Assembly (NCBI GenBank): GCA_963921275.4
Contig: OZ001293.3
Coordinates: 4,384,001 to 4,448,000 of the forward strand
Reading direction: 5' to 3'
DNA: 64,000 nucleotides
Source: an uncultured Hormoscilla sp.
GTDB taxonomy: Bacteria; Cyanobacteriota; Cyanobacteriia; Cyanobacteriales; Desertifilaceae
In this document: positions 22,451-45,597 of the stretch, one piece after another
Layout of the letters: every line of letters begins with the position of its first letter
Numbering within the stretch: the stretch's first letter is position 1
Translations under genes and position numbers: made by a program
Notes under the pieces: model-generated
What the model was told of the DNA's origin: nothing
The model's database searches: none
What the model saw: only the letters and a program-made list of their open reading frames with translations

Positions 22451-22705
22451 TTAACCACAGATACGCTCTCTCCCAGTATAAACATTAAGCCGCTGCTCGC
22501 GCAAGCATCCCACTAAAGTGATATTGAATTCCCGCACCAGAGACACTGCTAAACTACTAGGTGCGGACGATGTCTCCGGGGTTTTTGCGTCAGCGCAGCG
22601 CAGCCGCGGCTGCATGCATCCCGGAGACATCGGAACTGTACAAACGATCTGCACCCCAGCGCGTCAACTTTTCTGTAATAGTTCAAAGCTAGCTCGTCCG
22701 CTAAG
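22451..22705 (-). pseudogene. fdhD: FdhD sulfurtransferase C-terminal remnant interrupted by a MITE
   Basis: GRASFELLQK...SAPSSLAVSL.REFNITLVG.LRE.RLNVYTG; insertion at 22569-22631. Confidence 0.75.
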
Positions 22706-23132
22706 TTAGTCTTGACATATAATCTAGTATCATATAGAGGTTGACGTGGTTGGCAGCAAGTTATGGATTGTCCTGCGTTTTATCTCAGCCGCGAGTTGTA
22801 GAAGGGGCTGTGGGACTTGTTGGCGATCTTTTGTAACATGATGTACTTGGGAGTTAAAGGTTGAGAAAATGGGATTCAGTAAGCATACCCATCCTAGTTC
22901 GCGAGGGACAACAAGCTAACGGCTCAGCTCTTCCCCTCGCGAATGCGCTGCGCGCACGCTACGCGATCGGGAGATCTTGAGTCCTGAATTTCTGTCAAGC
23001 TTTGCCTATGCACCGGTGGTTGCCTGTGGGAGATACTGTTGCTGGTAACATTAATAATAGGCAGCACGCTACACGCTACGCTATTTTTCGATTCAGCCAA
23101 TATTTTTGGTAAAAATACTCATAAATGACGTA

Positions 23133-25795
23133 ATGAACGATTATCAAACTACTTCTCCTCTCAGGGTCAGCGGTAACGAGCCACTCCTCTTAGACGACCC
23201 CGATACTGTCTGGTTGATTCAGTCTGGTTCAATGGCAGTTTTTGCCGTGAGGGTCGTTGATGGCGTTCCCAAAGGAGCCCGTCGCTATTTGTTTAGCCTC
23301 ACAATTGATGAAGTCCTGTTTGGCATTGGTGGCCTTGGGGATACTCGATTCCTAGCCATTGCAGTTGCAGAAACTGCCCTCGTCCAATTGAGCTTAACAG
23401 ATTTAGTCGAGGGAGGACAATTAACTCACGTGCTTCATTGGCGCGATCGCCTCACCAACCTGTTCGCCCAGACAGATATATCTTTGACATTACCAGCATT
23501 TGAAAGGCTCGAAGATGCGAATAAACTCGCTTCTAATCTCAAGGAACTCCACAGAGAGTTTAGATCCAGTTTAGAGCAACTAGAACAACAGGAAAATGAA
23601 AATCAATTCAGCCAATTTCAAGAGCGCCAACGGCTCAATCAAAGGAGTATTAGAGGCGCAATTGGCGACCTGGTTTCGATCCTCAAGCCCAAACAGGGTC
23701 AATTGCTCCCAGAAGGAACGCCCTTACTAATTGCCGCAGGGGCTGTGGGACGGGCAATGGGGATTGAAATTCGTCCCCCCGCTCCTTCGGAAGATATGAA
23801 ACGGATCAAAAACCCCTTGGATGCGATCGCTCGCGCCTCTCGCATTTGTACCCGCCGCGTGCTCTTGAACGATGGCTGGTGGCGGACCGACTGCGGCCCT
23901 ATTTTAGCCTACAGGGAAGCGGACAATAGTCCTGTCGCCCTGCTGCCCGCAGGGCGGGGCAAGTATGAAATCTTTGACCCCTTACAACACAAGCGTTTTC
24001 CAGTTACTCCGGAGACAGTACGGCAGCTATATCCTTTTGCCTACACGTTCTACCGACCCTTTCCAGATAAAGAACTCAACGCCCTCGAACTCTTAAAGTT
24101 TTCCTTCCGAAGTCTAGGGCTAGATGTCATGATTATTTTGATCGTGGGCATCCTTGCTACTCTTCTGGGCATGATCTTTCCCCAAGCCACTGGCATAATT
24201 GTTGACAAGGTTATCCCGAGCTCCGATCGGGGGTTGCTATTCAAATCGGTTTCGGCTTGTTGGCAGCTAGTTTCGGCAAAGCTACCTTCGAGTTAGCTCA
24301 GGTATTTACTATTTTGAGGGTTCAAACCATCTCCAACTCCGCCAACCAAGCAGCACTCTGGGACCGGCTGCTGAAACTGCCCATTTCTTTCTTTCGCCAG
24401 TATACTACTGGTGACTTGCAAAACCGGGTTTCTGCAGTTAATCAGATTCGCCAAATCCTCGGCGGCACCGTCATGCGATCGCTGTTCAGCAGTTTTTTCT
24501 CCCTGCTGAATTTGGTTTTGATGCTTTATTACAGCATTAAGTTATCCTTGGCGGCAATGGCCATCGCCCTTGTCAATATTATCTTCACTACCATCTCGGG
24601 AATCCTCACTCACCAGAAAACGCGACCCCTGCAAAAAATCGCCGGGGAAATCTTTGGCTTGACCGTGCAGTTGCTCGGCGGCATTTCTAAACTGCGCATT
24701 GCTGGAGCGGAAAAGCGGGCCTTTGCCTACTGGACGAAACAATACAGCCAACAACTCTCCTTAATCTTAAGCACCGAACTCATTGAAGATGCGCTCAATA
24801 TCTTCAATACTGTATTGCCCACAATTAGCTCCATTATCATCTTTATCTTAGCCGTTAACTTAATCGCCGAGGCCCAGACTCAAGCAGAAGCCTGGCTATC
24901 GACTGGAACATTCCTCGTCTTTAACTCGGCCTTCGGAACCTTTCTCAGCGGTGTAACCAACCTGAGCAATACGATGATTGAAATTCTGGAGGTGACGATT
25001 CTCTGGGAACGCGCTCAACCGATTTTAGAAGCCAAACCAGAAACAGATCTCACTAAAGCAGATCCGGGACGACTTCGGGGTAATGTTAATCTCGCGGGAG
25101 TAACCTTCCGTTACCGAGAAAATGGTCCTCTTACCCTCAATCAGGTGACTGTTGAAGCCAAGGCTGGAGAATTTATCGCCCTCGTCGGTCCCTCAGGAAG
25201 CGGCAAATCTACCATTGTCCGCTTGCTGTTGGGTTTTGAAACTCCCGAAGACGGAACAGTTTACTACGACGGTCAGGATATCACCGGTTTAGATATCTCC
25301 GCCCTGCGGCGACAATTGGGAGTAGTCTTACAAAATGGTCGCATTAACAGCGGCTCAATTTTTGATAATATCGCCAGTAATGCATTGGTCACCATGGACG
25401 AGGTTTGGGAAGCCGCACTCCTGGCCGGATTTGCTGAAGATATCGAAAAAATGCCTATGGGCCTGCACACCGTTATCTCTGAAGGAGGCACCAATCTATC
25501 TGGGGGACAGCGACAGCGTTTGTTAATTGCTCGGGCCTTGGTTTTAAGACCAAAAATTATCATTTTTGACGAGGCTACCAGTTTCTTAGACAACCGCACT
25601 CAAGCTATTGTCACTCGGAGTTTAGAACCCTTGCAGGCAACTCGCATCGTTATTGCTCACCGCCTGAGTACTATTGCTAAGGCCGATCGCATCTATGTGA
25701 TTCAGGATGGTGTTGTCCTACAGCAAGAAACTTTTGACTAGCTGGCTTCTCAACCAGGACTTTTTGCTCAACTGATGGCTCGGCAGATGATGTAA
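23133..25795 (+). pseudogene. NHLP bacteriocin ABC transporter permease/ATPase (TIGR03797-like); frameshift ~24240 and TAG at 25739
   Basis: GPSGSGKS, LSGGQRQR, N-terminal cNMP-like domain and WWRTDCGPILAY. The frame continues LASQPGLFAQLMARQMM after the TAG. Confidence 0.9.
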
Positions 25796-25971
25796 TGGTT
25801 AGTGGGTTCTATAACAGGTAATATGCCTTCCATCGAAAATACTAATGCCCTAGACGATTCGGGCGGTTCGGGCGGTTCGGGCTGCTGTATCACATCAATG
25901 CCGAGATTCGCTATATCCCGTACACAGCAACGGGATTAGAAAATTGATAAAAATAAAGGAGGTAGACAACC

Positions 25972-26997
25972 GTGGAACAAACAATTGCCAAGTATCCTCA
26001 TTTTCAGGTCTTAAATGAAAGGGACATCGATTGGCTAGTCTCTCAAGGAAGGCAGGGAGAATGCCAGGCCGGGGAAATTCTGATTCAAGCCGGTCGCCAG
26101 GTAGAGTTCATACATATTTCTCTGTCGGGAACTTTGGCGGTTACAGCTTACCGTCAAGGAGAAGGAGAGCGGGAACTTAAAAAACTCTATGCTGGAGAAA
26201 TGATGGGAGAGATGTCTTTTTTAGATAATCAACTCCCCCCGACGACCATTAAAGTCCTAAAACAGTCTCGGGTGCTGTCCATTTCTAAGCAAGAACTAGG
26301 ACACAAGTTGGAACGGGACGAAGATTTTGCGACTCGCTTTTATCACCTGCTGGCTTTGAAACTATCTAACCAGTTGCGAGGACTGTCGGAATTATTGAGT
26401 CAAAATCAAGGGAGGGCAAGTCAACCTTTGCGCAAGGTACTACTGGTATTCGCGATTTTGCAGGATAGGGATATTGCTTGGGCGATCGCCAATGGGGTCT
26501 CCCAAAAGCTATCGGCGGGTACGGTGCTAATCCAGCAGGGCAAACCGGTCACGGCTGTGTATATATTACTGGAAGGAACCTTGGGTATCTATATTTCTCT
26601 GCCCCATGGGGGAGTAATGGCTGCTAAGGAAGTGGGACAATCGATGAAAGGGGAAATTCTTGGGGAAATGTCCTTTGTAGAAACGGGAACGGCTTCGGCA
26701 ACGGTAAAGGCGATCGCAGATTCTTGGTGCTTGGCAATTCCCCAAGCTAAATTGGCGTCTAAGTTGGCAGGAGACCTTCGAGGCGCTGCCAGGTTTTATC
26801 GCTCGATCGCCATCCTGATGTCCAACCGCTGGCGGGAACGCCTCTTCCGTCGCGGGTTTGCTACCCTCTATGAGGAGGGAAAACAAATGCTTTCTGAAGA
26901 CATAGAAGTAGAAGATGAACTGGATTTAGACACGATCGAAGGAACTGCTATTGCCGGCACTCGCTTCGATTGGATGATTAGACAGTTAAGTCGATGA
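25972..26997 (+). CDS. Bacteriocin-transport-associated tandem cyclic-nucleotide-binding protein (TIGR03896-like)
   Basis: Two cNMP domains (GEMMGEMSFL, GEILGEMSFV) and a DELDLD...AGTRFDWM tail. Confidence 0.85.
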   Translation: MEQTIAKYPHFQVLNERDIDWLVSQGRQGECQAGEILIQAGRQVEFIHISLSGTLAVTAYRQGEGERELKKLYAGEMMGEMSFLDNQLPPTTIKVLKQSRVLSISKQELGHKLERDEDFATRFYHLLALKLSNQLRGLSELLSQNQGRASQPLRKVLLVFAILQDRDIAWAIANGVSQKLSAGTVLIQQGKPVTAVYILLEGTLGIYISLPHGGVMAAKEVGQSMKGEILGEMSFVETGTASATVKAIADSWCLAIPQAKLASKLAGDLRGAARFYRSIAILMSNRWRERLFRRGFATLYEEGKQMLSEDIEVEDELDLDTIEGTAIAGTRFDWMIRQLSR

Positions 26998-27017
26998 TTG
27001 CGATCGAGGGAAAAGTC

Positions 27018-28640
27018 ATGTTTGGCCAGGATAAAAATGCAAAAAGGAATATTTTCCGCCAGGAATCCCTGGAACAACTCTCTTCACCAGAACGCTTGGA
27101 TCAGCTCATGCAGGCGATCGGCCCCAAGGACTGGCTGCCTTTAAAGGTGTTGGGAAGTCTAGTTTTCGCGGGATTGGTTTGGAGTATCTTCGGGCGCATT
27201 CCGATCGCCGTTGAAGGGCGAGGGATTCTTATCGATCCCCGTCGCGTCGCTAACTTGGAATCTCCTATTTCTGGTCAATTGTCCTCCTTAAATGTCCAAG
27301 CTGGTCAATGTGTTGCTCGGGACGAACTCCTGGCCACCATCGAACCTTCCGAATTGCGACAAAGGTTAAGGTCGGCCCAGAATCAAAAGACAGAATTACA
27401 ACGGCAATTCAATGAAACCACCATCCTTCTGTACCAAGGTGCTAACCTGGAAAAAGAGGCGATCGCCGCTTCCCAGGCCAGTATAGAGCAAAGCCTGCGG
27501 GACACCCGCTCCCTGACTCCCATTCTCAAAGATAAAGCCTTAAATTACCTTGCGGAACAACGCCGGAGTCTCCAACAACGCCTGGAGGATACCCAAGCAC
27601 TCACCCCCATTCTCAAAGACAAAGGTTTGGAGGCTATTGCCGAGCAACGGAATAGTCTCCAACAGCGCCTGGGTAATGCAAAAAAACTCTCGCCCATTTT
27701 GCGCGAAAGACTTGAAAAACGTCAGGCCCTGGCAGCAACAGGGGCGATCGAGCAAGATACCGTCCTGCAAGCAGAACAAGAATACATTGGCGCCCTGGAA
27801 AATATTGCTGACTTGGAAGCCGAACTGAAAAATCTGGATGTTCGGGAATCTGACGCCGAGCGACAATATCTGGAAAACCTCAGTCAGATTGGCAACCTCC
27901 AATCTCAACTCAAAGATTTAGATGTCAAAGAAGTAGAAGCGGAAAAGCAATATCTGGACAATCTTAATCGGATTAGCCAACTGGAAACCGAATTGCAAGA
28001 ATTAGAAACCAGGAAAAAGCGTTTGGAGCAAGAAAACCTCCAACAGCTCAACAGTAATAAAAATCAAATCCAGGAGGTAGAACGGGAGATTGCCCAACTG
28101 GAGCAACGGATTGCCGAGAACAGTAAAATTCTCAGTCCCAAGGCTGGCTGTATTTTAGAAATAACCGCTACCACCGGTCAGGTCGTCTCTCCAGGTACGC
28201 GCTTGGGGTCAATGAACATAGCGGGGAAAGAAAAAACCATCATGGGAGTCAGTTATTTTGCCATCTCTGACGGCAAGAAAATTGCCTTGGGAATGCCCAT
28301 TCAAATCACCCCTGACATTGTCAAGCGGCAGCGCTTCGGCGGGATTACCGGGACCGTTACTTCCATTTCCGAGTTTCCCGTCACCCAAGAAGGTGCAGCC
28401 ACGATTATCGGTAATCAGGAAGTCGTTAGTGGTTTAATTTCTGGGGGCGGCGTGATAGAAATTTGGGCCGAACTAGATGGGTCAGCCGACAGCTTCAGCG
28501 GTTACAAATGGTCTTCTTCCCAGGGACCCAAAATCAACATCACTCCCGGGACGACAACCACGGCCATAGTCCACGTAGAACAAAGGGCGCCGATTACTTT
28601 TGTCCTGCCAATTTTACGGGAGTGGACGGGCATATATTAG
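27018..28640 (+). CDS. NHLP bacteriocin secretion protein (HlyD family, TIGR03794-like)
   Basis: IFRQESLEQLSSPERLDQL, long coiled coil, GYKWSSSQGP, APITFVLP. Confidence 0.92.
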   Translation: MFGQDKNAKRNIFRQESLEQLSSPERLDQLMQAIGPKDWLPLKVLGSLVFAGLVWSIFGRIPIAVEGRGILIDPRRVANLESPISGQLSSLNVQAGQCVARDELLATIEPSELRQRLRSAQNQKTELQRQFNETTILLYQGANLEKEAIAASQASIEQSLRDTRSLTPILKDKALNYLAEQRRSLQQRLEDTQALTPILKDKGLEAIAEQRNSLQQRLGNAKKLSPILRERLEKRQALAATGAIEQDTVLQAEQEYIGALENIADLEAELKNLDVRESDAERQYLENLSQIGNLQSQLKDLDVKEVEAEKQYLDNLNRISQLETELQELETRKKRLEQENLQQLNSNKNQIQEVEREIAQLEQRIAENSKILSPKAGCILEITATTGQVVSPGTRLGSMNIAGKEKTIMGVSYFAISDGKKIALGMPIQITPDIVKRQRFGGITGTVTSISEFPVTQEGAATIIGNQEVVSGLISGGGVIEIWAELDGSADSFSGYKWSSSQGPKINITPGTTTTAIVHVEQRAPITFVLPILREWTGIY

Positions 28641-28693
28641 GCGGATCGCCTACCCGTCAATTTTGAAGAAATAATTTGTAATTGTCAGCAGTC

Positions 28694-30880
28694 ATGGCGA
28701 AAAAAAATCAGAAAGACACACCTCAAATTCCCAAGCGGGTTAAAACCCCAACCTTGCTACAAATGGAAGTAGTTGAGTGCGGTGCCGCTGCCTTGGGAAT
28801 TATTTTGGCTTACCACGGTCTGATCTTGCCATTACCAGAACTCCGCAGCAGTTGCGGGGTTTCTCGGGATGGTAGTAAAGCTGTAAATATGCTCAAGGCT
28901 GCCAGAAGCTACGGAATGCAAGCCAAGGGGTTTAAGAAAGATATCGACCAACTCCGGGAAATTCCCCCGTCCTTTATTGTTTTTTGGAATTTCAATCACT
29001 TCCTCGTGGTCGAAGGTTTTGTGGGAAACCGAATTTATTTGAACGACCCGGCCACGGGACCGCGAACTGTATCCTTTGAGGAATTTAATCGCGCCTATAC
29101 TGGCGTTGTTCTGATTTGTTCGCCGGGACCGGAGTTCAAAAAAGGAGGACGTAAACCCAGCATTATCGGCTCCCTCTACAGTCGCTTAAAAAACTCCTTG
29201 GGGATAATTTTGTATTGTATTTTGGCCGGTCTTCTCTTGGTCATCCCCGGGTTGGCCGTTGCTGTCTTCACCCAAGTCTTTGTCGATCGCATTCTGGTAG
29301 AAAATCGGATGAATTGGCTGCGTCCGTTGATTCTGGGCATGATCCTGACCGCGATCTTCCAATCCCTGTTAACATTTCTGCAATTTCGCTATCTAAGACA
29401 TTTGCAGATTAAGCTCTCAGTGGAGATGTCAACGGGCTTTCTCTGGCACCTGCTGCGCTTGCCCGCACGGTTTTATGCCCAACGGTTTCCTGGAGAAATT
29501 GGCGATCGCCTCCGCATTAATACTAAGGTAGCCAGCGTGCTTTCGGGTCAGTTAGCCACCACGGTTATTGATGCCGTGGTGGTGGTTTTTTACGCGGCTG
29601 TCATGTTTTCCTATGACTGGTTACTGACTTTAATCGGTCTATTCTTTTCGGGAATTAATGTCCTGCTCCTGCAGTGGGTGGGGCGGCTACGCAAAGATAC
29701 CTACATCCGCTTGAGCCAAGACCAGAGCAAGTTAGCGGGTGTCGGCATTGCGGCTCTGCAAAGTATAGAAACCCTCAAGTCGGCTACCCTAGAATCGGAT
29801 TTCTTTGCCCGTTGGGGTGGATATTACGCTAAAGTTAGCAATGCTCAACAGCAAATGGGAATTGTCAATCAGACCTTGGGAATTCTGCCCTCTCTGATTA
29901 CTTCCTTGACGACCCTATTTCTCCTTGTCGTTGGCGGCCTGCGGGTGATGAACGGTTATATCAGTATTGGCATGTTGGTGGCCTTTCAGAGCTTGATGCA
30001 AAGCTTTCAAAGGCCAGTTAATACCCTAGTCTCATTTGCCAGTACCCTTCAGGAGTTAGAAGGAGATCTCAATCGCTTAGACGACGTGCTCGACAATGAG
30101 GTGGATGGGCAGCTGGAACGGGAACCTCAGGATAGCAACTCGACCTTCTTTAAGCTGCAAGGGCATCTGGAGCTACGCAACCTCACCTTTGGCTATTCGC
30201 GGCTCGATTCGCCCTTAATTGAGAACTTCAATCTCTCCTTACAACCCGGACAGCGAGTCGCCTTGGTTAGGAGTAGCGGTTCGGGGAAATCAACTATTGC
30301 TAAGCTAGTGGTAGGGCTATATGAACCTTGGTCTGGGGAAATTCTTTTTGATGGCATCGACAGGGCTAAAATTCCACGGGAAGTATTGACTAATTCCCTG
30401 TCGATGGTGGAGCAAGAAATTTTCTGGTTCGGCGGTACGGTGCGGGATAATTTGACCCTGTGGGACGATACGATTCCTAAGGACCAGTTAATCCGCGCCT
30501 GCGAGGATGCGGCAATTTTGGATGCGGTTTGGGCCATTCCAGGGGGACTGGAGGGAAATTTGCTGGAAGGAGCGGCCAACATGAGCGGAGGACAACGTCA
30601 GCGATTGGAAATTGCCCGGGCCTTGGTTAACAATCCTTCGATCTTGGTGATGGACGAGGCCACTAGCGCTTTAGATGCGGAAATGGAGAAGATTATTGAC
30701 CAAAATTTACGGCGCCGGGGCTGTACTTGCCTGCTCGTGGCCCACCGGTTGAGTACGATTCGCGATTGCGACGAGATTATCGTCTTGGAACAGGGAAAGG
30801 TGGTGCAGCGGGGAACTCACGACCAGATGCGGGACGTGGAAGGCGCCTATGCTCGCTTGATTCAGTCTGAGTTCGGTTAA
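28694..30880 (+). CDS. NHLP bacteriocin C39 peptidase/ABC transporter (TIGR03796-like)
   Basis: QMEVVECGAA (catalytic Cys), WNFNHF, MSGGQRQR. Walker A reads RSSGSGKST. Confidence 0.93.
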   Translation: MAKKNQKDTPQIPKRVKTPTLLQMEVVECGAAALGIILAYHGLILPLPELRSSCGVSRDGSKAVNMLKAARSYGMQAKGFKKDIDQLREIPPSFIVFWNFNHFLVVEGFVGNRIYLNDPATGPRTVSFEEFNRAYTGVVLICSPGPEFKKGGRKPSIIGSLYSRLKNSLGIILYCILAGLLLVIPGLAVAVFTQVFVDRILVENRMNWLRPLILGMILTAIFQSLLTFLQFRYLRHLQIKLSVEMSTGFLWHLLRLPARFYAQRFPGEIGDRLRINTKVASVLSGQLATTVIDAVVVVFYAAVMFSYDWLLTLIGLFFSGINVLLLQWVGRLRKDTYIRLSQDQSKLAGVGIAALQSIETLKSATLESDFFARWGGYYAKVSNAQQQMGIVNQTLGILPSLITSLTTLFLLVVGGLRVMNGYISIGMLVAFQSLMQSFQRPVNTLVSFASTLQELEGDLNRLDDVLDNEVDGQLEREPQDSNSTFFKLQGHLELRNLTFGYSRLDSPLIENFNLSLQPGQRVALVRSSGSGKSTIAKLVVGLYEPWSGEILFDGIDRAKIPREVLTNSLSMVEQEIFWFGGTVRDNLTLWDDTIPKDQLIRACEDAAILDAVWAIPGGLEGNLLEGAANMSGGQRQRLEIARALVNNPSILVMDEATSALDAEMEKIIDQNLRRRGCTCLLVAHRLSTIRDCDEIIVLEQGKVVQRGTHDQMRDVEGAYARLIQSEFG

Positions 30881-30923
30881 TATGACGACAGCTTAAGTCC
30901 TGCCCTTAATATCGGCACTCTCT

Positions 30924-31015
30924 GCGCGACTCTGCGTTAAAGTCGCGCGACTCTGCGTTAAAGTCGCGCAACTCTGCGTTAAAGTCGCGCGACTCTGCGT
31001 TAAAGTCGCGCGACT
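30924..31015. repeat. 21-bp tandem repeat, ~4.4 copies
   Basis: GCGCGACTCTGCGTTAAAGTC head to tail. Confidence 0.92.
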
Positions 31016-31361
31016 TTGCCATAGAATCACGTGACTAATTTCTCAATCAATGTGACTTTAATCTAGATATGTAGCCCGCTGGCGCGGGCCCTCTCGACTT
31101 TGAAAAGGTTTGAGCAGGAACTTCTAGAGATGGGAGTCAAGGAACTGATTTAAGTAGATCCCCTCAGGGAAAAATTAGCAGATTGCGGTGAAGTAGTTAT
31201 TAGGGGAGTTACCTTCCCCGCCAGCCCCCAAGCAAGGGAAAAAGTAAAAAGAGGAAAGAAAATGATTCCAGAACTAGCGAAGCAACTATGTCTGTCAAAA
31301 AACGTCCGAATAGGGGGTGATGGAGGTGAAAAAAAAGTAGAAAGTAAAAGGAGGAAAGAAA

Positions 31362-32225
31362 ATAATTCCCGAACTAGTGAAGCAACAAGGGAACTTGATT
31401 TCCTTGGCCTGGAAGGATGAGGCATTCAAGCAAGTCCTTCTAAGCAATCCCTCTGAGGCGATCGCCTCAGAGTTGGGCATCTCTATCCCCCCAGGGACGG
31501 CGGTGCAGGTGCTGGAGGAAAAGGCCAACAGCCGCACGGTAGTCATCCCCCGGGAAGCCATAGGGCCAGAGAAACTGGAGCAGGTGAAAAGCCAGTGGGC
31601 AGAAGGGGAACTGTATCAGATAGCCAAGCTACTAGCTAGGGCGCAAGGAGAGGCGAAGTTCAAGGCATTCAGGCAAGTCCTTCTAAGCAATCCCAAAGAG
31701 GCGATCGCCTCAGAGTTGGGCATCTCTATCCCCCCAGGGACGACGGTGCAGGTGCTGGAGGAAAAGGCCAACAGCCGCACGGTAGTCATCCCCCGGGAAG
31801 CCATAGGGCCAGAGAAACTGGAGCAGGTGAAAAGCCAGTGGGGAGAAGGGGAACCGTATCAGATAGCTTCGCTGCTGGCCAGGGCGCAAGGAGAGGCGAA
31901 GTTCAAGCAGTTCCTGCTGTCCAGCCCCAAGCAGGCTATATCTAAGGCCCTGGGGACGGAACTCCCCCAGGATCTGGAAATTACCATGGTTTCCTCACAA
32001 CTGGATACGGAGTATATTATCCTGCCAGCTAAACCGGAAGGAGACCTGGAGGAACTGTCGGATGAAGAGTTGATGGCTGTTGCTGGGGGGAGCGAATTGA
32101 TTAAGATTACCATAGTGGGATCTGCTTCGGTATGTCTGTCGGCAGCGCTGTCGGTACTGCTGTTGGGGAGCGCTGTCGGTACTGCTGTTGGGGCAATCAC
32201 ATTCACTACCACAACCAATTGGTAG
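31362..32225 (+). CDS. NHLP-family RiPP precursor 1 (three leader modules; 44-aa core at 32091-32222)
   Basis: AWKDEAFKQVLLSNP repeats and the ELSDEELMAVAGG cleavage motif. The homologous start codon is ATA at 31362; alternative GTG at 31377. Confidence 0.88.
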   Translation: MIPELVKQQGNLISLAWKDEAFKQVLLSNPSEAIASELGISIPPGTAVQVLEEKANSRTVVIPREAIGPEKLEQVKSQWAEGELYQIAKLLARAQGEAKFKAFRQVLLSNPKEAIASELGISIPPGTTVQVLEEKANSRTVVIPREAIGPEKLEQVKSQWGEGEPYQIASLLARAQGEAKFKQFLLSSPKQAISKALGTELPQDLEITMVSSQLDTEYIILPAKPEGDLEELSDEELMAVAGGSELIKITIVGSASVCLSAALSVLLLGSAVGTAVGAITFTTTTNW

Positions 32226-32522
32226 ACGAGTTTGCTGGTACAGGGTAAGGACATGGGAAATTTTTCTTGCCCTTGCCCTGTTTGCTGAGGGAGGAAAACT
32301 CGGGCAGAAATCTGGCAGGGGGGAGTTTTCCCCCTCGTTATTGCCCTATAGTACTTTCCGCAGCGGAAAAGCGGAAACCATTGATTATAGGGCTCGGGGG
32401 ACTTGCCGGGATGAGAAAGTTGCAGTTATTATCGGGAATAGGGGTGCTTCCAGAAGAGGTGGTTATTAGGGGGTGACCTTCACCGCTTCCAAGCAAGGGA
32501 AAAGGTAAAAAGAGGAAAGAAA

Positions 32523-33122
32523 ATGATTCCAGAACTAGCGAGGCAACGAGGGAATTTGATTTCCAAGGCATGGAGGGATGAGGCATTCAGGCAGGTCTTT
32601 CTAAGCAATCCCAAAGAGGCGATCGCCTCAGAGTTGGGCATCTCTATCCCCCCAGGGACGACGGTGCAGGTGCTGGAGGAAAAGGCCAACAGCCGCACGG
32701 TAGTCATCCCCCGGGAAGCCATAGGGCCAGAGAAACTGGAGCAGGTGAAAAGCCAGTGGGGAGAAGGGGAACCGTACCAGATAGCCAAGCTACTAGCTAG
32801 GGCGCAAGGAGAGGCGAAGTTCAAGCAGGAACTGCTGTCTAGCCCCAAGCAGGTTATATCTAAGGCCCTGGGGACGAAACTCCCCCAGGATCTGGAGATC
32901 GCCATGGTTTCCTCACAATCGGATACGGAGTATATTATCCTGTCAGCTAAACCGGAAAAAGACCTGGAGGAACTGTCGGATGAAGAGTTGATGGCTGTTG
33001 CTGGGGGGAGCGAATTGATTAAGATTACCATATTGGCACTTACTATTATCAATATCGGCAGCGCTGTCGGTATTGCTGTTGGGGTTGGGGCAATCGCATC
33101 ATCTACCACAACCAATTGGTAG
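32523..33122 (+). CDS. NHLP-family RiPP precursor 2 (two leader modules; 37-aa core at 33009-33119)
   Basis: ISKAWRDEAFRQVFLSNPK, ELSDEELMAVAGG, and an AGAGGA RBS upstream of the ATG. Confidence 0.92.
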   Translation: MIPELARQRGNLISKAWRDEAFRQVFLSNPKEAIASELGISIPPGTTVQVLEEKANSRTVVIPREAIGPEKLEQVKSQWGEGEPYQIAKLLARAQGEAKFKQELLSSPKQVISKALGTKLPQDLEIAMVSSQSDTEYIILSAKPEKDLEELSDEELMAVAGGSELIKITILALTIINIGSAVGIAVGVGAIASSTTTNW

Positions 33123-33424
33123 ACGAGTTTGCTGGTACAGGGTAAGGACATGGGAAATTTTTCTTGCCCTTGCCCTGTTTACTGAGGGAGGAAAACTCGG
33201 GCAGAAATCTGGCAGGGGAGAGTTTTCCCCCTCGTTATTGCCCTATAGTACTTTCCGCAGCGGAAAAGCGGAAACCATTGATTATAGGGCTCGGGGGACT
33301 TGCCGAGAAAAGAAAATTGCAGTTATCATCGGGAAATAGGGTACTTCCAGGTAAAGTAGTTATCACTAATGCGCGATCGAACTCGGTTCCCCCAAACTGC
33401 CGTTTATTGCCCTTGCGTGAGACG

Positions 33425-34305
33425 ATGATTCCTACCTTAGCAGAGGCGGTTTTAGCCGTCAGCCCTTACATCCCTGCTAAACTGATTTCCGGGAAAAACC
33501 TCCGGCATATGAGAGCGATCGCATCTCACCTGCCGGGGGCGATCGCCAGTTTTTGGGGATTTGAATGTCGCCTGGGAGAAGAAGCGCCCCTTGGGGACTT
33601 TCTCATATCCGTTAAAGCTGATGAAGGTCGGGTGATCGTTGCAGGGACCCACGATAGTATAGAATTATCGGAGTCCCTGAAAACAAATCCAGTGTGGAAC
33701 CTAGGGTGCAAGTTCAGCCAGCATTGGGCGGATTCAACCTCTCCTATTTATGAGAAAGTAGATAACATGTGGTTGGAGTTCGATGTGGATGGGGAACCTC
33801 CTGCCATTCCCATCCCCAGCTTGTTCTTTGGTTGCAGTCCCACCCAAGTGGAAAATACAGGCATCACCTTGGCCAAGGCCGAACCGTCCTCTCATGAATG
33901 GGTAACGGAAACGGCATTAAAAATCCTCCTGGGGGATAGTTTGTCTGGGGAGATAGTACAAAAATTACGGCAATGCTTGGGGGCATTACCCCCAGAGGCA
34001 TATGTTTTTCAAATTGGGCTCATGCTTGCCAGAAAAGCCGAGACAATCAGACTCTGTATTCGCAACATTTCCCCTCAAAATATTATCCTCTATCTGGAGA
34101 AAATCGGCTGGACTGGTGCAATTGACCTTCTGCAAGGGACAGTATCGGAACTCGCCAGTTTTACAGACCGCATCGACCTAGATTTAGATGTGGGTAATGC
34201 CGTGTTGCCGAAAATCGGTTTAGAATGCTATATTGAAGGGCAACCTCGCAGCGAACCGAAATGGCTGGCATTTTTGTCCTATCTGGTAGAGGGGGGTTTG
34301 TGCTA
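33425..34305 (+). pseudogene. Putative RiPP-modifying enzyme (possibly aromatic prenyltransferase-like), 3'-truncated by IS607
   Basis: Protein-like from MIPTLAE through FWGFECRLG, NMWLEFD, QIGLMLAR, LDLDVG..PKIGLECY to VEGGLC, then runs into IS left-end sequence. Function is inferred. Confidence 0.55.
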
Positions 34306-35450
34306 CAAACCCGGGCCGCTTATCAACCAGCGAAATCGTCATAATCTTACCTTTTCTCTACCAACCAGTTTCGACCACACCCCAACCCTCAACCCTCCGC
34401 CCCCCACAAGCCCGTTAACAGCCTCGCCTTGGGAATTAGATCCGATACAGAAACTGACAATGTGCAAAAGAGCAGTCACGGAGTTGCGACTAAGTGCCCG
34501 AAAACCTACACATCTCTCACGCTTTGACGATAATTCAGTATCGTCGGGATTATTATCGGTAGCAAAACATTCTACTATTTCCGTATTATCGCGCTTTCCG
34601 GCAGGTCGGATTGTGTCTGTAATAAAGCTAATAAAGCTAATGCATTTAGCAAAAAACGAGCATTGGCTGCTCGCGAATAAATGAAACATGAGTATTATAG
34701 CCCAGCCCAAGCAGCTAACCTTTTGGGAGTGCATCCAGAGTCCGGAAGAAGGTGGGAAAGAGAAGGAAAAATCACGTCGTACAGGACGCCGAGTGGGCAG
34801 CGCCGCTTCCTCAAAAGGGAAATCGAGGGATTGCTCCTCATCGGGTTGCCAACTACAACTGTTTGTTATGCAAGGGTCTCAAGCTATTCCCAACGTGAAG
34901 ATGCAAGAGCCGACAACTTGAATACCTGCGCCTTCACTATCCAGAGGCGGAGTTCATTTCTGAAATTGGAGGGGGGCTTAATTTTAAGCGGCGGAAGTTC
35001 AAAGCCATTTTGGAACGAATTGTCGAGCAGGATATCCAGCGGCTTGTCGTTGCCCACCGCGACAGACTCTGCCGATTTGGATGGGAACTGGTTGAGTGGT
35101 TATGCAAATACAATGCAGTCCAACTCGTGGTTCTCAATGAACAACAACTCAGTCCAGAGCAAGAGCTTGTTCAGGATATGCTGTCCATCATCCATTGCTT
35201 CAGTTCTCGGCTCTACGGTCTCCGAAAGTACAGAAAAGAAATCAGCTCGAAAGTACGGGAAGAATCAATTCAAGAAAAGCCGGAATGTTCAGCCGAACAG
35301 TGTCCGAAAAATCCCGTTATTTCCCGATCGGGAACTTCACGCTATTTGGAAGCAATGACTAGCTGCTTATCGCTGGGTTTATAATCAGTGCGTTGAATTT
35401 TACAATAAGGGTCGCTCTCTGGCACCCAAGCAGTCGTTAGACCAAATCGA
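34305..35450 (+). mobile_element. Degenerate, right-truncated IS607 element (frameshifted tnpA at 34681-35384; tnpB stub)
   Basis: MerR-like HTH, CYARVSS, HRDRLCRFG, FSSRLYGLRKY; tnpB start KIPLFPD...WKQ*LAAYRWVYNQ. Confidence 0.88.
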
Positions 35451-36132
35451 ACTGCCTTTTTAGCTGCCGAAAAGCATTGTAAATCTCTTCTTCATAATAA
35501 CTGCAAAAATCAATATTTCTCCCAATTGTAAATCTCTTCTTCATAATGACTGCAAAAATCAATATTTCTCCCAAAGTTCTCTGCCTGGAGATATAGTTTA
35601 TAGCCGCCCTTCTTGGCCATATCGATAAAAGCCTTTTCCACCTGTAAGATCCGCCGATTACTCGCCCCGTCTCCCGTGCACATTCTGGACATGACTCCAA
35701 TGACCAGAAACGGTTCCGCTTGGGGATAGACCAAAGGCGGGTTGAACTGGAAGAAACGAATGAAATAATAATATCCCATGGGCGCGGCATTAAAAAAGGG
35801 ACCGGCCCATTCACCACCTTCAGGGATTATCTCATGGGGGTGAGCTTTGACGAACCTATAAAGGTCGATCCAGGCTTTCATTAACTCCTTTTGAGAAACT
35901 AATAAGCTGAACCCAAAAAGATTATTTTGCTTGCCATTTTTGGGAGGCCGATCGTTCTCTTTCGGATCGTCGGTTTGCCGCTTGACTATTTTCCCGGATG
36001 CACCCAGGAGCAACTCGCCCTTTTGGGGCAAGGAAACGCCGTTAAAGGTTCGGAAACTATTTCGATGCCTAAATCTGAAAATAACTCCTCCAGGGCCCTA
36101 TTGTCTGCTGGTATTAGCTCCTTCATTTGCAT
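35437..36132 (-). pseudogene. FAD-linked oxidase C-terminal-like protein, disrupted
   Basis: KLYLQ...SHYEEEIYNAFRQLKRQFD resembles the FAD-oxidase/cytokinin dehydrogenase C-terminus. Frameshift at ~36035, a 49-bp tandem duplication (35476/35525), and cut by IS607. Confidence 0.5.
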
Positions 36133-36135
36133 ACC

Positions 36136-37530
36136 TCAATCCAACCAGTGTAACCGATCTGGCGAAGGAACGAGATTGCCTTCTATAGCAGGTAAAGATT
36201 CCACCTGTTCCATCTGGGCGATCGCTGCGGTCAAGAGCATTTTCCCATTCAGCTGGCGTAGGGACTCAACCGAGGACATATTTTTGGGTAGGGGGCGTTT
36301 TTCGCGAATCAGACGATCTACATTTTGCTCGAATGGTTCCAAGCTAAAACTATTCGTATCTCTGAGCCATTTCCGCATCCAGGCATGGTAAGTCGGGCGT
36401 TCTTTTTTCATGTCATAAAGCCCTGACAACAATTGATAGAACCTGCTATACTCCAAGCGATAGCGCAGTTCAAATTCATGCAAGCAAACAGCTTCATCTA
36501 TCTCGCCCCGCAAAGTCGTGTTAATCGAGCGGGCGGCCAACAGGGCGCCATAGGTTGCCAAATGTACCCCCGAGGAAAACAGCACATCGATAAAGCAGGC
36601 AGCATCGCCAACCAGGAGAATACCTGGCTTCCAGAAATGGGAATGGCAGTAGGAAAATTCCTGACGCATGCGAATTTCCCCATAGGGAATTTCCCTTGCT
36701 GGCTGGGCCCCTGCCAAATATTCTGATATAATCGGACAAGCTGCAATATAATCTTGCAGAGTTCCGGCCAAATTTCCTCGATTCTCTTTGAGCTTGCCAG
36801 TCCGTTCTTCGGGCAATACAGCACCAACGCTAGTGAGAGTATCGTCAAGGGGGATGTACCACAACCACCCATCGTCAAATGCTTCAAATAGAACGTTTCC
36901 GCTGTCTGGTTGGGGCAGGCGTTTGCCGTTAACAAAATAGCCGTATATAGCGATATTGCGATAGAACTGGGAGTAGAGGCGATCGCCTACCTGCTGGGCC
37001 ATTTTGCTTTGATGTCCCGAAGCATCTACCACAAAACGGGCCGTTGCCCTTTCTTCACGACCGTTCCCATCGCCGAACACAACTCCCGTTACCCGATCGC
37101 CCGACCAAACCAAATTTTTCACTCGGTGTTGTTCGCGGACATCAACGCCCTTTTCTCTAGCATTATCCAGCAGAATGCGATCAAACTCCGCCCGTTTCAC
37201 TTGGTAGGCGTAGACTCTGCTATAGTCATTGGGGTCTCCTACAACTAGAGAGCTGCCAAAATTGAGAGTCCAAGCACCTGTTTCCTTGCCCCAAGAAAAA
37301 GTCCCACCCCTTTTCTTGATAAAACCCGCCTGCTTGACTGAGTCGCCAACACCAAGTAACTGCACAATACCATTGATTGTCGCTGGTAATAGGGACTCGC
37401 CAATTTGATAACGAGGGAAGCGTTCCCGTTCCAGCAAAAGCACCTTATGCCCCTGCATGGCTACCAGAGTGGCCGCTGTTGACCCTGCCGGTCCGCCTCC
37501 GATCGCAATCATATCGTATTCTTTGTCCAT
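36136..37530 (-). CDS. Flavin-dependent halogenase (CndH/VhaA-like phenolic type)
   Basis: GGGPAG, FPRYQIGESLLP, KRGGTFSWG (catalytic Lys region), WLWYIP, GDAACF..FSSGVHLA. Confidence 0.92.
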   Translation of the reverse strand: MDKEYDMIAIGGGPAGSTAATLVAMQGHKVLLLERERFPRYQIGESLLPATINGIVQLLGVGDSVKQAGFIKKRGGTFSWGKETGAWTLNFGSSLVVGDPNDYSRVYAYQVKRAEFDRILLDNAREKGVDVREQHRVKNLVWSGDRVTGVVFGDGNGREERATARFVVDASGHQSKMAQQVGDRLYSQFYRNIAIYGYFVNGKRLPQPDSGNVLFEAFDDGWLWYIPLDDTLTSVGAVLPEERTGKLKENRGNLAGTLQDYIAACPIISEYLAGAQPAREIPYGEIRMRQEFSYCHSHFWKPGILLVGDAACFIDVLFSSGVHLATYGALLAARSINTTLRGEIDEAVCLHEFELRYRLEYSRFYQLLSGLYDMKKERPTYHAWMRKWLRDTNSFSLEPFEQNVDRLIREKRPLPKNMSSVESLRQLNGKMLLTAAIAQMEQVESLPAIEGNLVPSPDRLHWLD

Positions 37531-43813: not shown

Positions 43814-45014
43814 TTAACCCGAAAAAATCTTGTAATTGCCGGAAATTTCTGAGTATGGCACAATCTGGAATGAAGCTATCAGGCCAGATGCGGAGGTATC
43901 TCTCAAAGCCTTCAACAAAATGTTGAAAGCGCCATTAATATCACGACTAATAGTGTGACCACATGAGGGACAAATAAATCGTTTGTTGCCTCCTAACTTT
44001 ATGTGAATGTGCCCACATTTTGAGCAAGTTTTGCTGGTGTACTCTTCCGTCACGTCTACTACAACACAGCCGTATTTAGCTGCTTGATGCTTGAACGTTT
44101 GCTTAAAACGGTAATGAGACCATGTAACCATTTTACGTGCTGTCTTAGTTGACAACCGTCGCTTGCCTCGTTTGACCATATTTTTAACCTCAAATGTAGG
44201 CAAAAATATGACTTTGTACTTGGTGCATAGATAGTTGGCTGCTTTCTTATGCAGTTCATCAACCAAGTTACGAATCTTAACCCGAATCTTTTGTGCCGCC
44301 TTTCGCAGGCAGTGCCGTAGCCGCTTAAATTGGCGTCCTTTAGATAAGCCGATTCGAGACATTAGCCGATCGAGATGACTGGCTAACCGATAGATACGAC
44401 CCATATCAGACTTGCCAACCTCCCAAATTTCTTGACCGTCAAACCCAGTTAGAAATGTCCTGACACCTGGATCAAGGGCGATGGCTAGCTCACTGTTTAA
44501 TGGTTCCAGTTTAGGCACGTCTATGGCATAACAGATAAACCAACGTCCTCTGTCTAGTACCAATGTAGGCTCATGGTGCATTTTGTCTATAATTGGCTCA
44601 CTTGCTTTGAACCTTAATCCTTTGGTCTGTGTTGGATAAAAATTTCCTTTTTTCCAGTTATTTTTCTGAAACCGGATAGACTTAACAGATTCACGTACTG
44701 AGCGAAATTTAGCATCTCCTCCTGATTTTCTTGCTGCTTTGTGTGCCTCATAAGCCTGAAATACCGCCAATTGGCGTGGGCTATATGGGGTTTGACTTAC
44801 CCAAGATGGAGCCATATCTATGACCGTTTTGCGTAGGTCATATTTACCAATCTTCTGATTTTTGAGTATAGCAATGGCTTGATTGAAGCACCATCTGGCT
44901 GCTGATATCCATTGAAACCAGGTTTTAGCTAATGCCGTTTCTGGGTAAACTCGAATCTTCTTTGATAGCAGATTTGTACTTCCTGAGTCCATAGAGTCTG
45001 CAACTGAAGACATG
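43814..45014 (-). CDS. tnpB: IS607 TnpB RNA-guided endonuclease (start uncertain; ORF open to 45505)
   Basis: KKIRVYP, IALDPGVR, EEYTSKTCSKCG...CPSCG, RDINGAFNI. Confidence 0.92.
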
Positions 45015-45512
45015 GACGATGACAAGGATATCCTCAACCATTTCTCGTTCTGGAGATAGGTCACTTCGGTTGAGAACCACGAGTTGGCAATCTTTTTGTT
45101 GACAGAGCCACTCGATAAGGTCAAGTCCAAACCTGACAAGTCTGTCTTTGTGGCAGACCACAACTTCTTTGACATCTCCTGACATGACTTGTCCCAGAAT
45201 GGATAAAAACCCTTTGCGTTTGTAGTTGAGTCCTGATCCGATTTCCTTGACAAGTTTTCCGTCTGTGAACAAGGATTGCAAATAGTCGGCTTGCCGTTCA
45301 AGGTCTGACTTTTGCTTATATGAACTGACTCTGGCGTAGAGGATTCTGATTCTTGGGGAGCCGTCTGGATTAATGACGGAGTCGATGTCGTATCGTCGAT
45401 GACCAGCGGGAGTTCTAATTGTCTGTATTTTTCCGTCTCTATCCCAGTTTCGGAGTGTTTTTTCCGAGACCTGAAGGACTTGTGACGCTTCTCTCGGTGT
45501 GGCATATCTCAT
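44925..45512 (-). CDS. tnpA: IS607 serine recombinase TnpA
   Basis: N-terminal HTH (TLRNWD, RTPAGHRRY), LYARVSS, EIGSGLNYKR, HKDRLVRFG. Confidence 0.95.
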   Translation of the reverse strand: MRYATPREASQVLQVSEKTLRNWDRDGKIQTIRTPAGHRRYDIDSVINPDGSPRIRILYARVSSYKQKSDLERQADYLQSLFTDGKLVKEIGSGLNYKRKGFLSILGQVMSGDVKEVVVCHKDRLVRFGLDLIEWLCQQKDCQLVVLNRSDLSPEREMVEDILVIVHVFSCRLYGLRKYKSAIKEDSSLPRNGIS

Positions 45513-45536
45513 GATGTTTTTGTTTGCACTATCAAT

Positions 45537-45545
45537 ATTATACCA
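45537..45545 (-). promoter_or_regulatory. Extended -10 promoter for IS607 tnpA
   Basis: Minus strand TGGTATAAT ~25 nt upstream of the tnpA ATG. Confidence 0.5.
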
Positions 45546-45597
45546 CACGCGAGAATATATTTCCGGAAAAATATATAAAATTCCTGGAAATCATACT

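What the first reader, a model, noticed from the sequence alone, without database searches (positions are those of the whole stretch)
33425..34305. Orphan enzyme next to the precursors: candidate peptide (Trp) prenyltransferase
The motifs FECRLG, WLEFD, QIGLMLAR..IRLC and LDLDVG..PKIGLECY alternate helix and strand in a way reminiscent of ABBA/PT-barrel aromatic prenyltransferases associated with cyanobacterial RiPPs. Both cores end in Trp. The fold call is recollection-based inference. The gene is cut after VEGGLC by IS607, so the C-terminus (and any fused domain) is lost.
Basis: inference. Interest (0 to 1): 0.75.

Follow-up and report, generated by a model that had tools for sequence, protein, structure and literature searches.

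The report
Broken MppC-type peptide tryptophan prenyltransferase
This is a broken gene, 40% identical to the characterised peptide prenyltransferase MppC, that likely once attached an isoprenoid chain to the last tryptophan of the two neighbouring precursor peptides; it has lost its final ~65 residues and is probably inactive, so it is a known kind of enzyme in a decaying cluster.

Summary
The ORF and motifs are real, and the fold guess was right. The model (pLDDT 90) matches only ABBA/PT-barrel prenyltransferases in its top 19 hits (Z 7.9-12.5; next 5.1). It is not an orphan: it is 40% identical (E 2e-70) to the gene that fits the published MppC, a leader-dependent Trp C5-geranyltransferase. 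In its clade, 41 of 42 distinct neighbouring cores end in Trp, against 0 of 16 control cores from genomes without a match. IS607 starts ~180 bp downstream. A deletion into a MITE replaced the gene's 3' end, removing ~65 residues with the last barrel strands and five invariant residues. The nearest intact relatives have no fused domain. The junction stands in contigs of three runs. No LanM or cyclase was found in the genome. A CndH-like halogenase and an FAD-oxidase remnant likely belong to the cluster. Verdict: probably a pseudogene, a new member of a known family. One open point: intact sister enzymes lack MppC's leader-binding segment.

The parts
33425..34303 (+). Native part (293 codons) of an MppC-family ABBA prenyltransferase gene; holds 8 modelled barrel strands and lacks the C-terminal elements
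   Evidence: 87% identical to intact P0003
34304..34684 (+). Non-homologous read-through tail (127 codons to TAA) across the MITE end, old 3' intergenic DNA and the IS607 left end
34305..34382 (+). Right end of a MITE; the deletion that joined it to codon 293 removed about 247 bp of gene end and 3' flank
   Evidence: junction spanned without differences by contigs 33276-35055 in three runs of one study
34380..34474 (+). Remnant of the gene's original 3' intergenic region (88% to L001 11131-11230)
34484..35444 (+). Degenerate IS607 (frameshifted TnpA); downstream of the break, not its cause
31377..32225 (+). Precursor 1: three tandem NHLP leader domains, LSDEEL..VAGG cleavage site, core 32091-32222 ending TTTTNW; ATA at 31362 where precursor 2 has ATG
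32523..33122 (+). Precursor 2: two tandem NHLP domains; core SELIKITILALTIINIGSAVGIAVGVGAIASSTTTNW, whose only aromatic residue is the last Trp
23106..25741 (+). NHLM ABC transporter 2 (TIGR03797), split by a frameshift near 24257-24296
   Evidence: same letters in contigs of two runs
25972..30880 (+). cNMP-binding protein (TIGR03896), HlyD (TIGR03794) and C39-peptidase ABC transporter (TIGR03796) of the NHLM export system
35446..36126 (-). Remnant of an FAD_binding_4 oxidoreductase (424 aa in L001) with two internal deletions and no 3' end
36136..37530 (-). Intact flavin-dependent halogenase, closest solved relative 3e1t (E 1e-139; the name CndH is recalled); likely part of the same cluster
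   Evidence: homologues directly after family prenyltransferases in L033 (58%) and L084 (49%)

Best explanation
The gene is a truncated member of the MppC family of ABBA-barrel peptide prenyltransferases that likely once prenylated the C-terminal Trp of the two NHLP precursors and is now probably inactive. Shown: predicted barrel fold, 40% identity to MppC, Trp-ending cores, and the 3' deletion into a MITE. Inferred mechanism for the intact ancestor: Mg2+-assisted loss of diphosphate from an allylic donor (GPP if like MppC; chain length untested) gives a carbocation in the barrel. The indole of the terminal Trp attacks it (C5 in MppC). The CndH-like halogenase may also act on that indole. The C39-ABC/HlyD system would cut at the double glycine and export a linear, hydrophobic lipopeptide; no LanM or cyclase was found in this genome, so no ring would form. 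The 420-aa read-through product would lack the last barrel strands and invariant K298/H330/K332/K344/Y346 (P0003 numbering), which likely include diphosphate-binding residues.
For: Fold: model pLDDT 90.3; VIA top 19 all ABBA prenyltransferases, Z 12.5 (MpnD, rmsd 3.9, 251 aligned), rank 20 at Z 5.1; intact sister Z 15.9, rmsd 4.3, 297 aligned. Family: the gene after the ACWRWSG precursor in G535 has W336 and F340 as published for MppC, scores E 2.6e-127 on the family profile, is 115/284 identical to P0001, and is sister to the P0001/P0003/P0004 group (FastTree support 0.836). MppC geranylates Trp indole C5, needs the leader and does not accept free L-Trp (PMC12715784). Substrate link: in the 31-locus clade, 18 of 19 loci with a precursor have a Trp-ending core and 41 of 42 distinct cores end in Trp; control 0 of 16 cores from 11 genomes without a match. 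17 of 20 chosen loci carry a squalene-hopene-cyclase-like neighbour, and 3 of 40 longer homologues are cyclase fusions. Loss: P0001 keeps 57 of 68 columns conserved at 90% or more, changes 2 and lacks 9 through the deletion; the lost part holds H296-303, E307-313, E320-336, E339-354; the missing piece was not found elsewhere in the genome.
Against: No enzyme assay was possible. Foldseek alone gave no match at E<=0.001 (best 1.5e-3). The intact sisters P0003 and P0004 have a 20-residue loop where MppC and 73 of 85 matched rows have 33, so the segment carrying MppC W336/F340 is gone. The genome that encodes intact P0003 has no match to the precursor (0 of 4 congeners). MppC prefers a lanthionine-cyclised core, whereas no LanM was found in this genome. 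Loci are related, so the 41 of 42 count overstates independence, and the control cores are NHLP-type while most clade cores are Nif11-type. 32 of 99 loci showed a precursor at all; many contigs are short.
Confidence: 0.78

Rival explanations
1. In this lineage the enzyme moved off the precursors and prenylates a small aromatic (free indole, Trp or Tyr derivative) together with the halogenase and FAD oxidase; the precursors are bystanders.
For: Intact P0003 persists beside an intact halogenase and oxidase in a genome without a precursor match. It lacks the MppC leader-binding segment. The halogenase is closest to 3e1t and gave no hit to the mpp halogenase. The closest folds are small-molecule indole prenyltransferases.
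Against: That locus is full of transposase-like ORFs and its transporter is broken too, so precursor loss looks like decay. The same prenyltransferase-plus-halogenase pairing sits with Trp-ending NHLP cores in L033/L034 and L084. MppC does not accept L-Trp. No solved MppC-family structure was found, so fold neighbours say little about substrate.
Confidence: 0.1
2. The conserved terminal Trp is the target of the halogenase only (as for SrpI), and the prenyltransferase acts on another residue such as Ser/Thr.
For: SrpI brominates the C-terminal Trp of an NHLP precursor (PMC12615548, passages). An intact halogenase lies in this cluster. In the mpp cluster, halogenase and prenyltransferase act on different Trp residues.
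Against: Most clade loci with Trp-ending cores showed no homologue of this halogenase; blastp hits were in L001, L033, L084 and weakly L081. Trp therefore tracks the prenyltransferase, not the halogenase. MppC and NctPC both act on Trp.
Confidence: 0.07
3. The 420-aa read-through protein is still a working prenyltransferase.
For: The frame is open to 34684, the first 293 codons carry no stop or frameshift, and dN/dS is 0.25.
Against: The last barrel strands and 9 highly conserved residues are gone. The tail is MITE, intergenic and IS DNA. Transporter 2 and the oxidase are broken too. Low dN/dS fits a recent break.
Confidence: 0.05

Closest known systems
MppC, lanthipeptide Trp C5-geranyltransferase of the mpp cluster (PMC12715784)
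   Same: ABBA fold; 40% identity over 284 residues; same profile (E 2.6e-127); gene directly after a double-glycine precursor with a long structured leader and an L(X)4L motif; halogenase in the cluster.
   Different: Here the leaders are tandem NHLP domains, not Nif11; the Trp is the very last residue of a long linear core; no LanM or cyclase was found in the genome; the intact sisters lack the W336/F340 segment; this copy is truncated.
NctPC / steromaze prenyltransferase-cyclase fusion (Hubrich et al. 2024; seen only through review PMC13290415 and a reference listing)
   Same: ABBA prenyltransferase acting on a RiPP Trp; family homologues fused to squalene-hopene-cyclase-like domains occur beside SWTGC-type cores.
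   Different: No cyclase fused or found in this genome. The fusions lie in another clade (tree distance 2.4 vs 1.5 to MppC). The NctPC sequence itself could not be compared.
Cyanobactin F-type prenyltransferases (PagF, PatF, LimF, KgpF, DciF)
   Same: ABBA barrel, peptide substrates (Z 7.9-9.1).
   Different: 9-12% structural identity, no sequence match; they act without the leader, after cleavage.
DMATS / NphB-CloQ small-molecule ABBA prenyltransferases (MpnD, CymD, FgaPT2)
   Same: Best structural matches (Z 10-12.5).
   Different: 7-11% identity; no Trp_DMAT or PTase_Orf2 Pfam hit for P0001; small-molecule acceptors.
PalQ / PalX (PMC10853753)
   Same: NHLP precursor with a conserved C-terminal Trp that is prenylated (passages).
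   Different: PalQ is an isoprene-synthase-fold enzyme, unrelated to the ABBA barrel; same logic, different fold.

Membership tests
ABBA / PT-barrel prenyltransferase superfamily | Repeated alpha-alpha-beta-beta units forming an antiparallel barrel ringed by helices | tested here: met
   Models of P0001 and P0003; VIA Z 12.5 and 15.9, with the top 19 hits all ABBA enzymes.
ABBA / PT-barrel prenyltransferase superfamily | Complete, closed barrel in this gene's own product | tested here: not met
   The window's copy has 8 modelled strands; E307-313, E320-336 and E339-354 of the intact sister are deleted. This lowers 'working enzyme', not descent.
ABBA / PT-barrel prenyltransferase superfamily | Basic and Tyr residues on the strands for diphosphate binding | tested here: inconclusive
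   Conserved R203, R209, K263 kept; K332, K344, Y346 lost. Their role is inferred from recalled DMATS active sites; no residue-level superposition was available.
MppC-type RiPP Trp prenyltransferases | Sequence homology to MppC | tested here: met
   115/284 identical, E 2e-70; the MppC-matching gene scores E 2.6e-127 on the family profile.
MppC-type RiPP Trp prenyltransferases | Linked long-leader precursor with Trp in the core | tested here: met
   Two NHLP precursors ending in Trp directly upstream; 41 of 42 distinct clade cores end in Trp.
MppC-type RiPP Trp prenyltransferases | Leader-engaging segment around W336/F340 | tested here: not met
   Deleted with the C-terminus here, and 13 residues shorter in intact P0003 and P0004. 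It is a feature of MppC itself; the paper shows it in other members only by models.
MppC-type RiPP Trp prenyltransferases | Prenyl transfer to Trp indole, donor and position | not testable with these tools
   Needs an assay.
NctPC-type prenyltransferase-cyclase maturases | Fused or adjacent class II terpene cyclase | tested here: not met
   No tblastn hit in the genome for the 600-aa neighbour, a fused cyclase domain or the mpp terpene synthase; intact sisters end at 358 and 386 aa.
Cyanobactin F-family prenyltransferases | Sequence match to PagF/LynF-type enzymes and a cyanobactin cluster | tested here: not met
   No Pfam, NCBIfam or PDB sequence hit; neighbours are NHLP/NHLM genes.

The most novel reading that the evidence does not exclude
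The intact sisters (P0003, P0004) form a variant of the MppC family that has shed MppC's leader-binding segment and prenylates the very last Trp of linear, tandem-NHLP precursors, with a CndH-type halogenase decorating the same indole. The wider clade marks an uncharacterised family of clusters with ...KW-ending cores, LanM, a Zn-dehydrogenase and a stand-alone cyclase, whose products would carry a terpenylated C-terminal Trp.
Probability: 0.35. Interest if true: 0.55.

Novelty: new member of a known kind. Interest (0 to 1): 0.33.

Why it matters
The copy itself is probably a pseudogene, so its value is as a pointer. An ABBA enzyme that prenylates any C-terminal Trp on a linear peptide, perhaps with little dependence on the leader, would be a useful lipidation tool, and an intact natural sister plus a cognate-type precursor makes this directly testable. 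The locus also shows one RiPP cluster at three stages of loss in three congeners: enzyme broken with precursors kept (window), enzyme intact with no precursor match (L001), and both gone with halogenase and oxidase parts left (L166).

Tried and rejected
Pfam, NCBIfam and PDB sequence searches, single and profile, gave no hit for the protein. Foldseek gave nothing at E<=0.001, although its listed rows were ABBA enzymes. The complex prediction of P0003 with precursor 2 gave no answer (score 0.01, controls not folded) and is used neither way. 'IS607 split the gene and the 3' half lies beyond it or elsewhere' was rejected: best tblastn E 0.04, best blastn a 58-bp piece of the non-coding flank. 'Assembly artefact' was rejected for the samples seen, though these three runs are one study and may be the window's own source. 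The first search for the mpp core motif found 0 of 121 genomes; the second found 2 of 52. My own profile of the 600-aa neighbour did not link it to fused cyclases (best E 0.03) and it had no PDB sequence hit; the cyclase label rests on the Atlas and a weak match to the mpp terpene synthase (E 5.5e-7). A resemblance of the LanM plus Zn-dehydrogenase loci to the npn cluster could not be checked (paper not held). Two RNA runs showed no contig of this organism's transporter or precursor genes (laid on 23000-33400 only, so the prenyltransferase gene was not examined in RNA runs); no statement on expression. Earlier findings of the scan: none returned. Literature searches for a description of the KW-type clusters found none, but Hubrich et al. 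2024 and the MppC supplement (Figures S67-S71 list further clusters) could not be read and may cover them.

Full report
Observation. The frame from ATG 33425 gives 293 residues with all four quoted motifs. It has no Pfam, NCBIfam or PDB sequence hit, but 276 homologues among 2175 candidates, mostly unnamed proteins of about 360-400 aa. The nearest listed are P0003 (87%, 358 aa, named Hormoscilla sp. GUM202 by the source) and P0004 (81%). Upstream lie two NHLP precursors, with three and two leader domains and cores ending TTTNW, and an NHLM export system.

The break. Aligned with the intact gene (L001), similarity ends at 34304 and resumes at 34380, 54 nt past the intact stop. The 75 bases between are the right end of a MITE with 13 other hits in the genome; complete copies have GGGTGTGGTCAAAA ends and 8-9-bp target duplications. 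IS607 starts only at ~34484. I infer that a MITE inserted just behind the gene, and a later deletion ran from codon 293 into it. The lost 65 codons were not found elsewhere in the genome. Contigs of three runs of one study span 33276-35055 with no difference. The frame reads on for 127 unrelated residues. Neighbours are decaying too: transporter 2 is frameshifted, the FAD oxidase has deletions, and precursor 1 has ATA where precursor 2 has ATG. dN/dS of 0.25 against the sister gene fits a recent break.

Fold. AlphaFold with 118 sequences gave pLDDT 90.3 and four helix-helix-strand-strand units. Against 48,161 chains, the top 19 are all ABBA prenyltransferases (Z 12.5 to 7.9) and rank 20 falls to 5.1. 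Foldseek agreed in rank but not in significance (best E 1.5e-3). The intact sister models at pLDDT 91.5 and Z 15.9; its H296-303, E307-313, E320-336 and E339-354 are what the window lacks. K298, H330, K332, K344 and Y346 are invariant in 117 full-length rows. P0001 keeps 57 of 68 highly conserved columns, changes 2 and lacks 9. That some of these bind diphosphate is inferred from recalled DMATS chemistry.

Family. PMC12715784 (parts 1 and 2 of 3 read; supplement not readable) shows MppC to be an ABBA enzyme that geranylates Trp indole C5 on a cyclised core, needs the leader, rejects L-Trp, and uses W336/F340 for leader contact. PMC11791876 (part 1 of 3) gives the core ACWRWSG. That motif occurs in 2 of 52 genomes of one family. 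The next gene in G535 has W336 and F340, scores E 2.6e-127 on my profile, and is 115/284 identical to P0001 (E 2e-70). In a 99-tip FastTree it is sister to P0001/P0003/P0004, at moderate support of 0.836. The window's gene is thus an MppC-family member by test, not by recall. Of 40 longer homologues, 27 are fused to 2OG-Fe(II) oxygenases, 4 to LanM, 4 to methyltransferases and 3 to squalene-hopene-cyclase domains, and 2 carry other or no domains. The cyclase fusions recall NctPC, which I saw only through section 8 of review PMC13290415 and a reference listing. The family was found in 17 of 401 genomes of the phylum, the window's included.

Substrate. Of 99 loci, 32 showed a double-glycine precursor and 30 of these had Trp. 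In the 31-locus clade around the window's gene, 19 loci showed precursors, 18 of them with a terminal Trp, and 41 of 42 distinct cores end in Trp. In the other 68 loci, 9 of 38 cores end in Trp, 25 have it inside and 4 lack it. As control, 20 genomes with NHLP matches but no enzyme match gave 16 readable cores from 11 genomes: none ends in Trp and 4 have it inside. Kin are not independent, and most clade leaders are Nif11-type. In 20 loci that I chose from the 99, the commonest neighbours were LanM (17), a ~600-aa cyclase-like protein (17), metallo-beta-lactamase-fold proteins (14 and 9), a Zn-dehydrogenase (13) and a 2OG oxygenase (12). LanM, the cyclase-like protein and the dehydrogenase gave no hit in this genome. 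Instead the window resembles a smaller set, L033/L034, L084 and L081: NHLP cores ending in Trp with a halogenase and/or an FAD oxidase like those at 35446-37530. The halogenase is closest to 3e1t and gave no hit to the mpp halogenase.

Mechanism. Shown: fold, family, linkage, truncation. Inferred: the intact ancestor ionised an allylic diphosphate and alkylated the terminal indole, GPP at C5 being the nearest precedent. The halogenase may act on the same ring, since core 2 has no other aromatic residue. The C39 transporter would release a linear lipopeptide. The present product is probably inactive. Against this reading: intact P0003 and P0004 have 20 residues where MppC and 73 of the 85 rows matched (of 117) have 33, so the W336/F340 segment is gone; and none of 4 congeners matched the precursor. 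This keeps a small-molecule role open (0.10) and is also the most novel lead.

Comparison and verdict. It works like MppC and descends from that family. It is not an NctPC-type fusion, a cyanobactin F enzyme or PalQ, which prenylates an NHLP terminal Trp with another fold (PMC10853753, passages). SrpI gives a precedent for halogenating an NHLP terminal Trp (PMC12615548, passages). Searches for a description of the KW-type clusters found none, but the key 2024 paper and one supplement were not readable. New member of a known kind, probably a pseudogene; interest 0.33.

Noticed in passing
window 31377-33122: Both precursors carry tandem NHLP leader domains (three and two) before one core; tandem leaders also occur in L027 and L111 precursors.
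   Followed up: partly
window 32144-32193: Core 1 holds a 25-nt direct repeat whose first copy is read in a shifted frame (SVCLSAALSVLLLG) and whose second copy is read as SAVGTAVG, in register with core 2; the frame stays open to the terminal Trp.
   Followed up: partly
window 31240-31380: The precursor start region is duplicated: an ATG copy at 31262 runs out of frame, and the in-frame copy has ATA at 31362; contigs of two runs agree.
   Followed up: partly
L002, L003, L025-L031, L036-L046, L052, L104-L106: A recurring cluster with Nif11 precursors ending ...KW and almost free of Cys, LanM, Zn-dehydrogenase, two metallo-beta-lactamase-fold proteins, 2OG oxygenase (often fused to the prenyltransferase), a stand-alone cyclase-like protein and JmjC; no description found in the searches made.
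   Followed up: partly
L045 and L100 (one contig, VFQU01000137.1): Two family prenyltransferases about 20 kb apart: a 2OG fusion with Trp-ending cores, and a cyclase fusion with nine WTGC-type cores.
   Followed up: no
L034 448-5943 and L081 6193-11696: YcaO-TfuA genes and a ~700-aa halogenase-like protein beside family prenyltransferases and Trp-ending NHLP cores, suggesting thioamide plus prenyl products.
   Followed up: no
P0151-P0153, P0155: Prenyltransferase domain fused at the C-terminus of LanM (about 1360 aa).
   Followed up: no
L166 (G547:C2): A congener has lost the whole block matching window 22568-35446 (transporters, precursors, prenyltransferase) but keeps oxidase and halogenase parts.
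   Followed up: partly
window 31200-33150, runs X7 and X11: Contigs in two RNA libraries match the precursor leader, mostly at under 95% identity, and continue into different cores: related organisms carry precursors of this leader family; transcription not shown.
   Followed up: no
window 43814-45548 (-): A second IS607-type element with apparently intact resolvase and TnpB genes.
   Followed up: no
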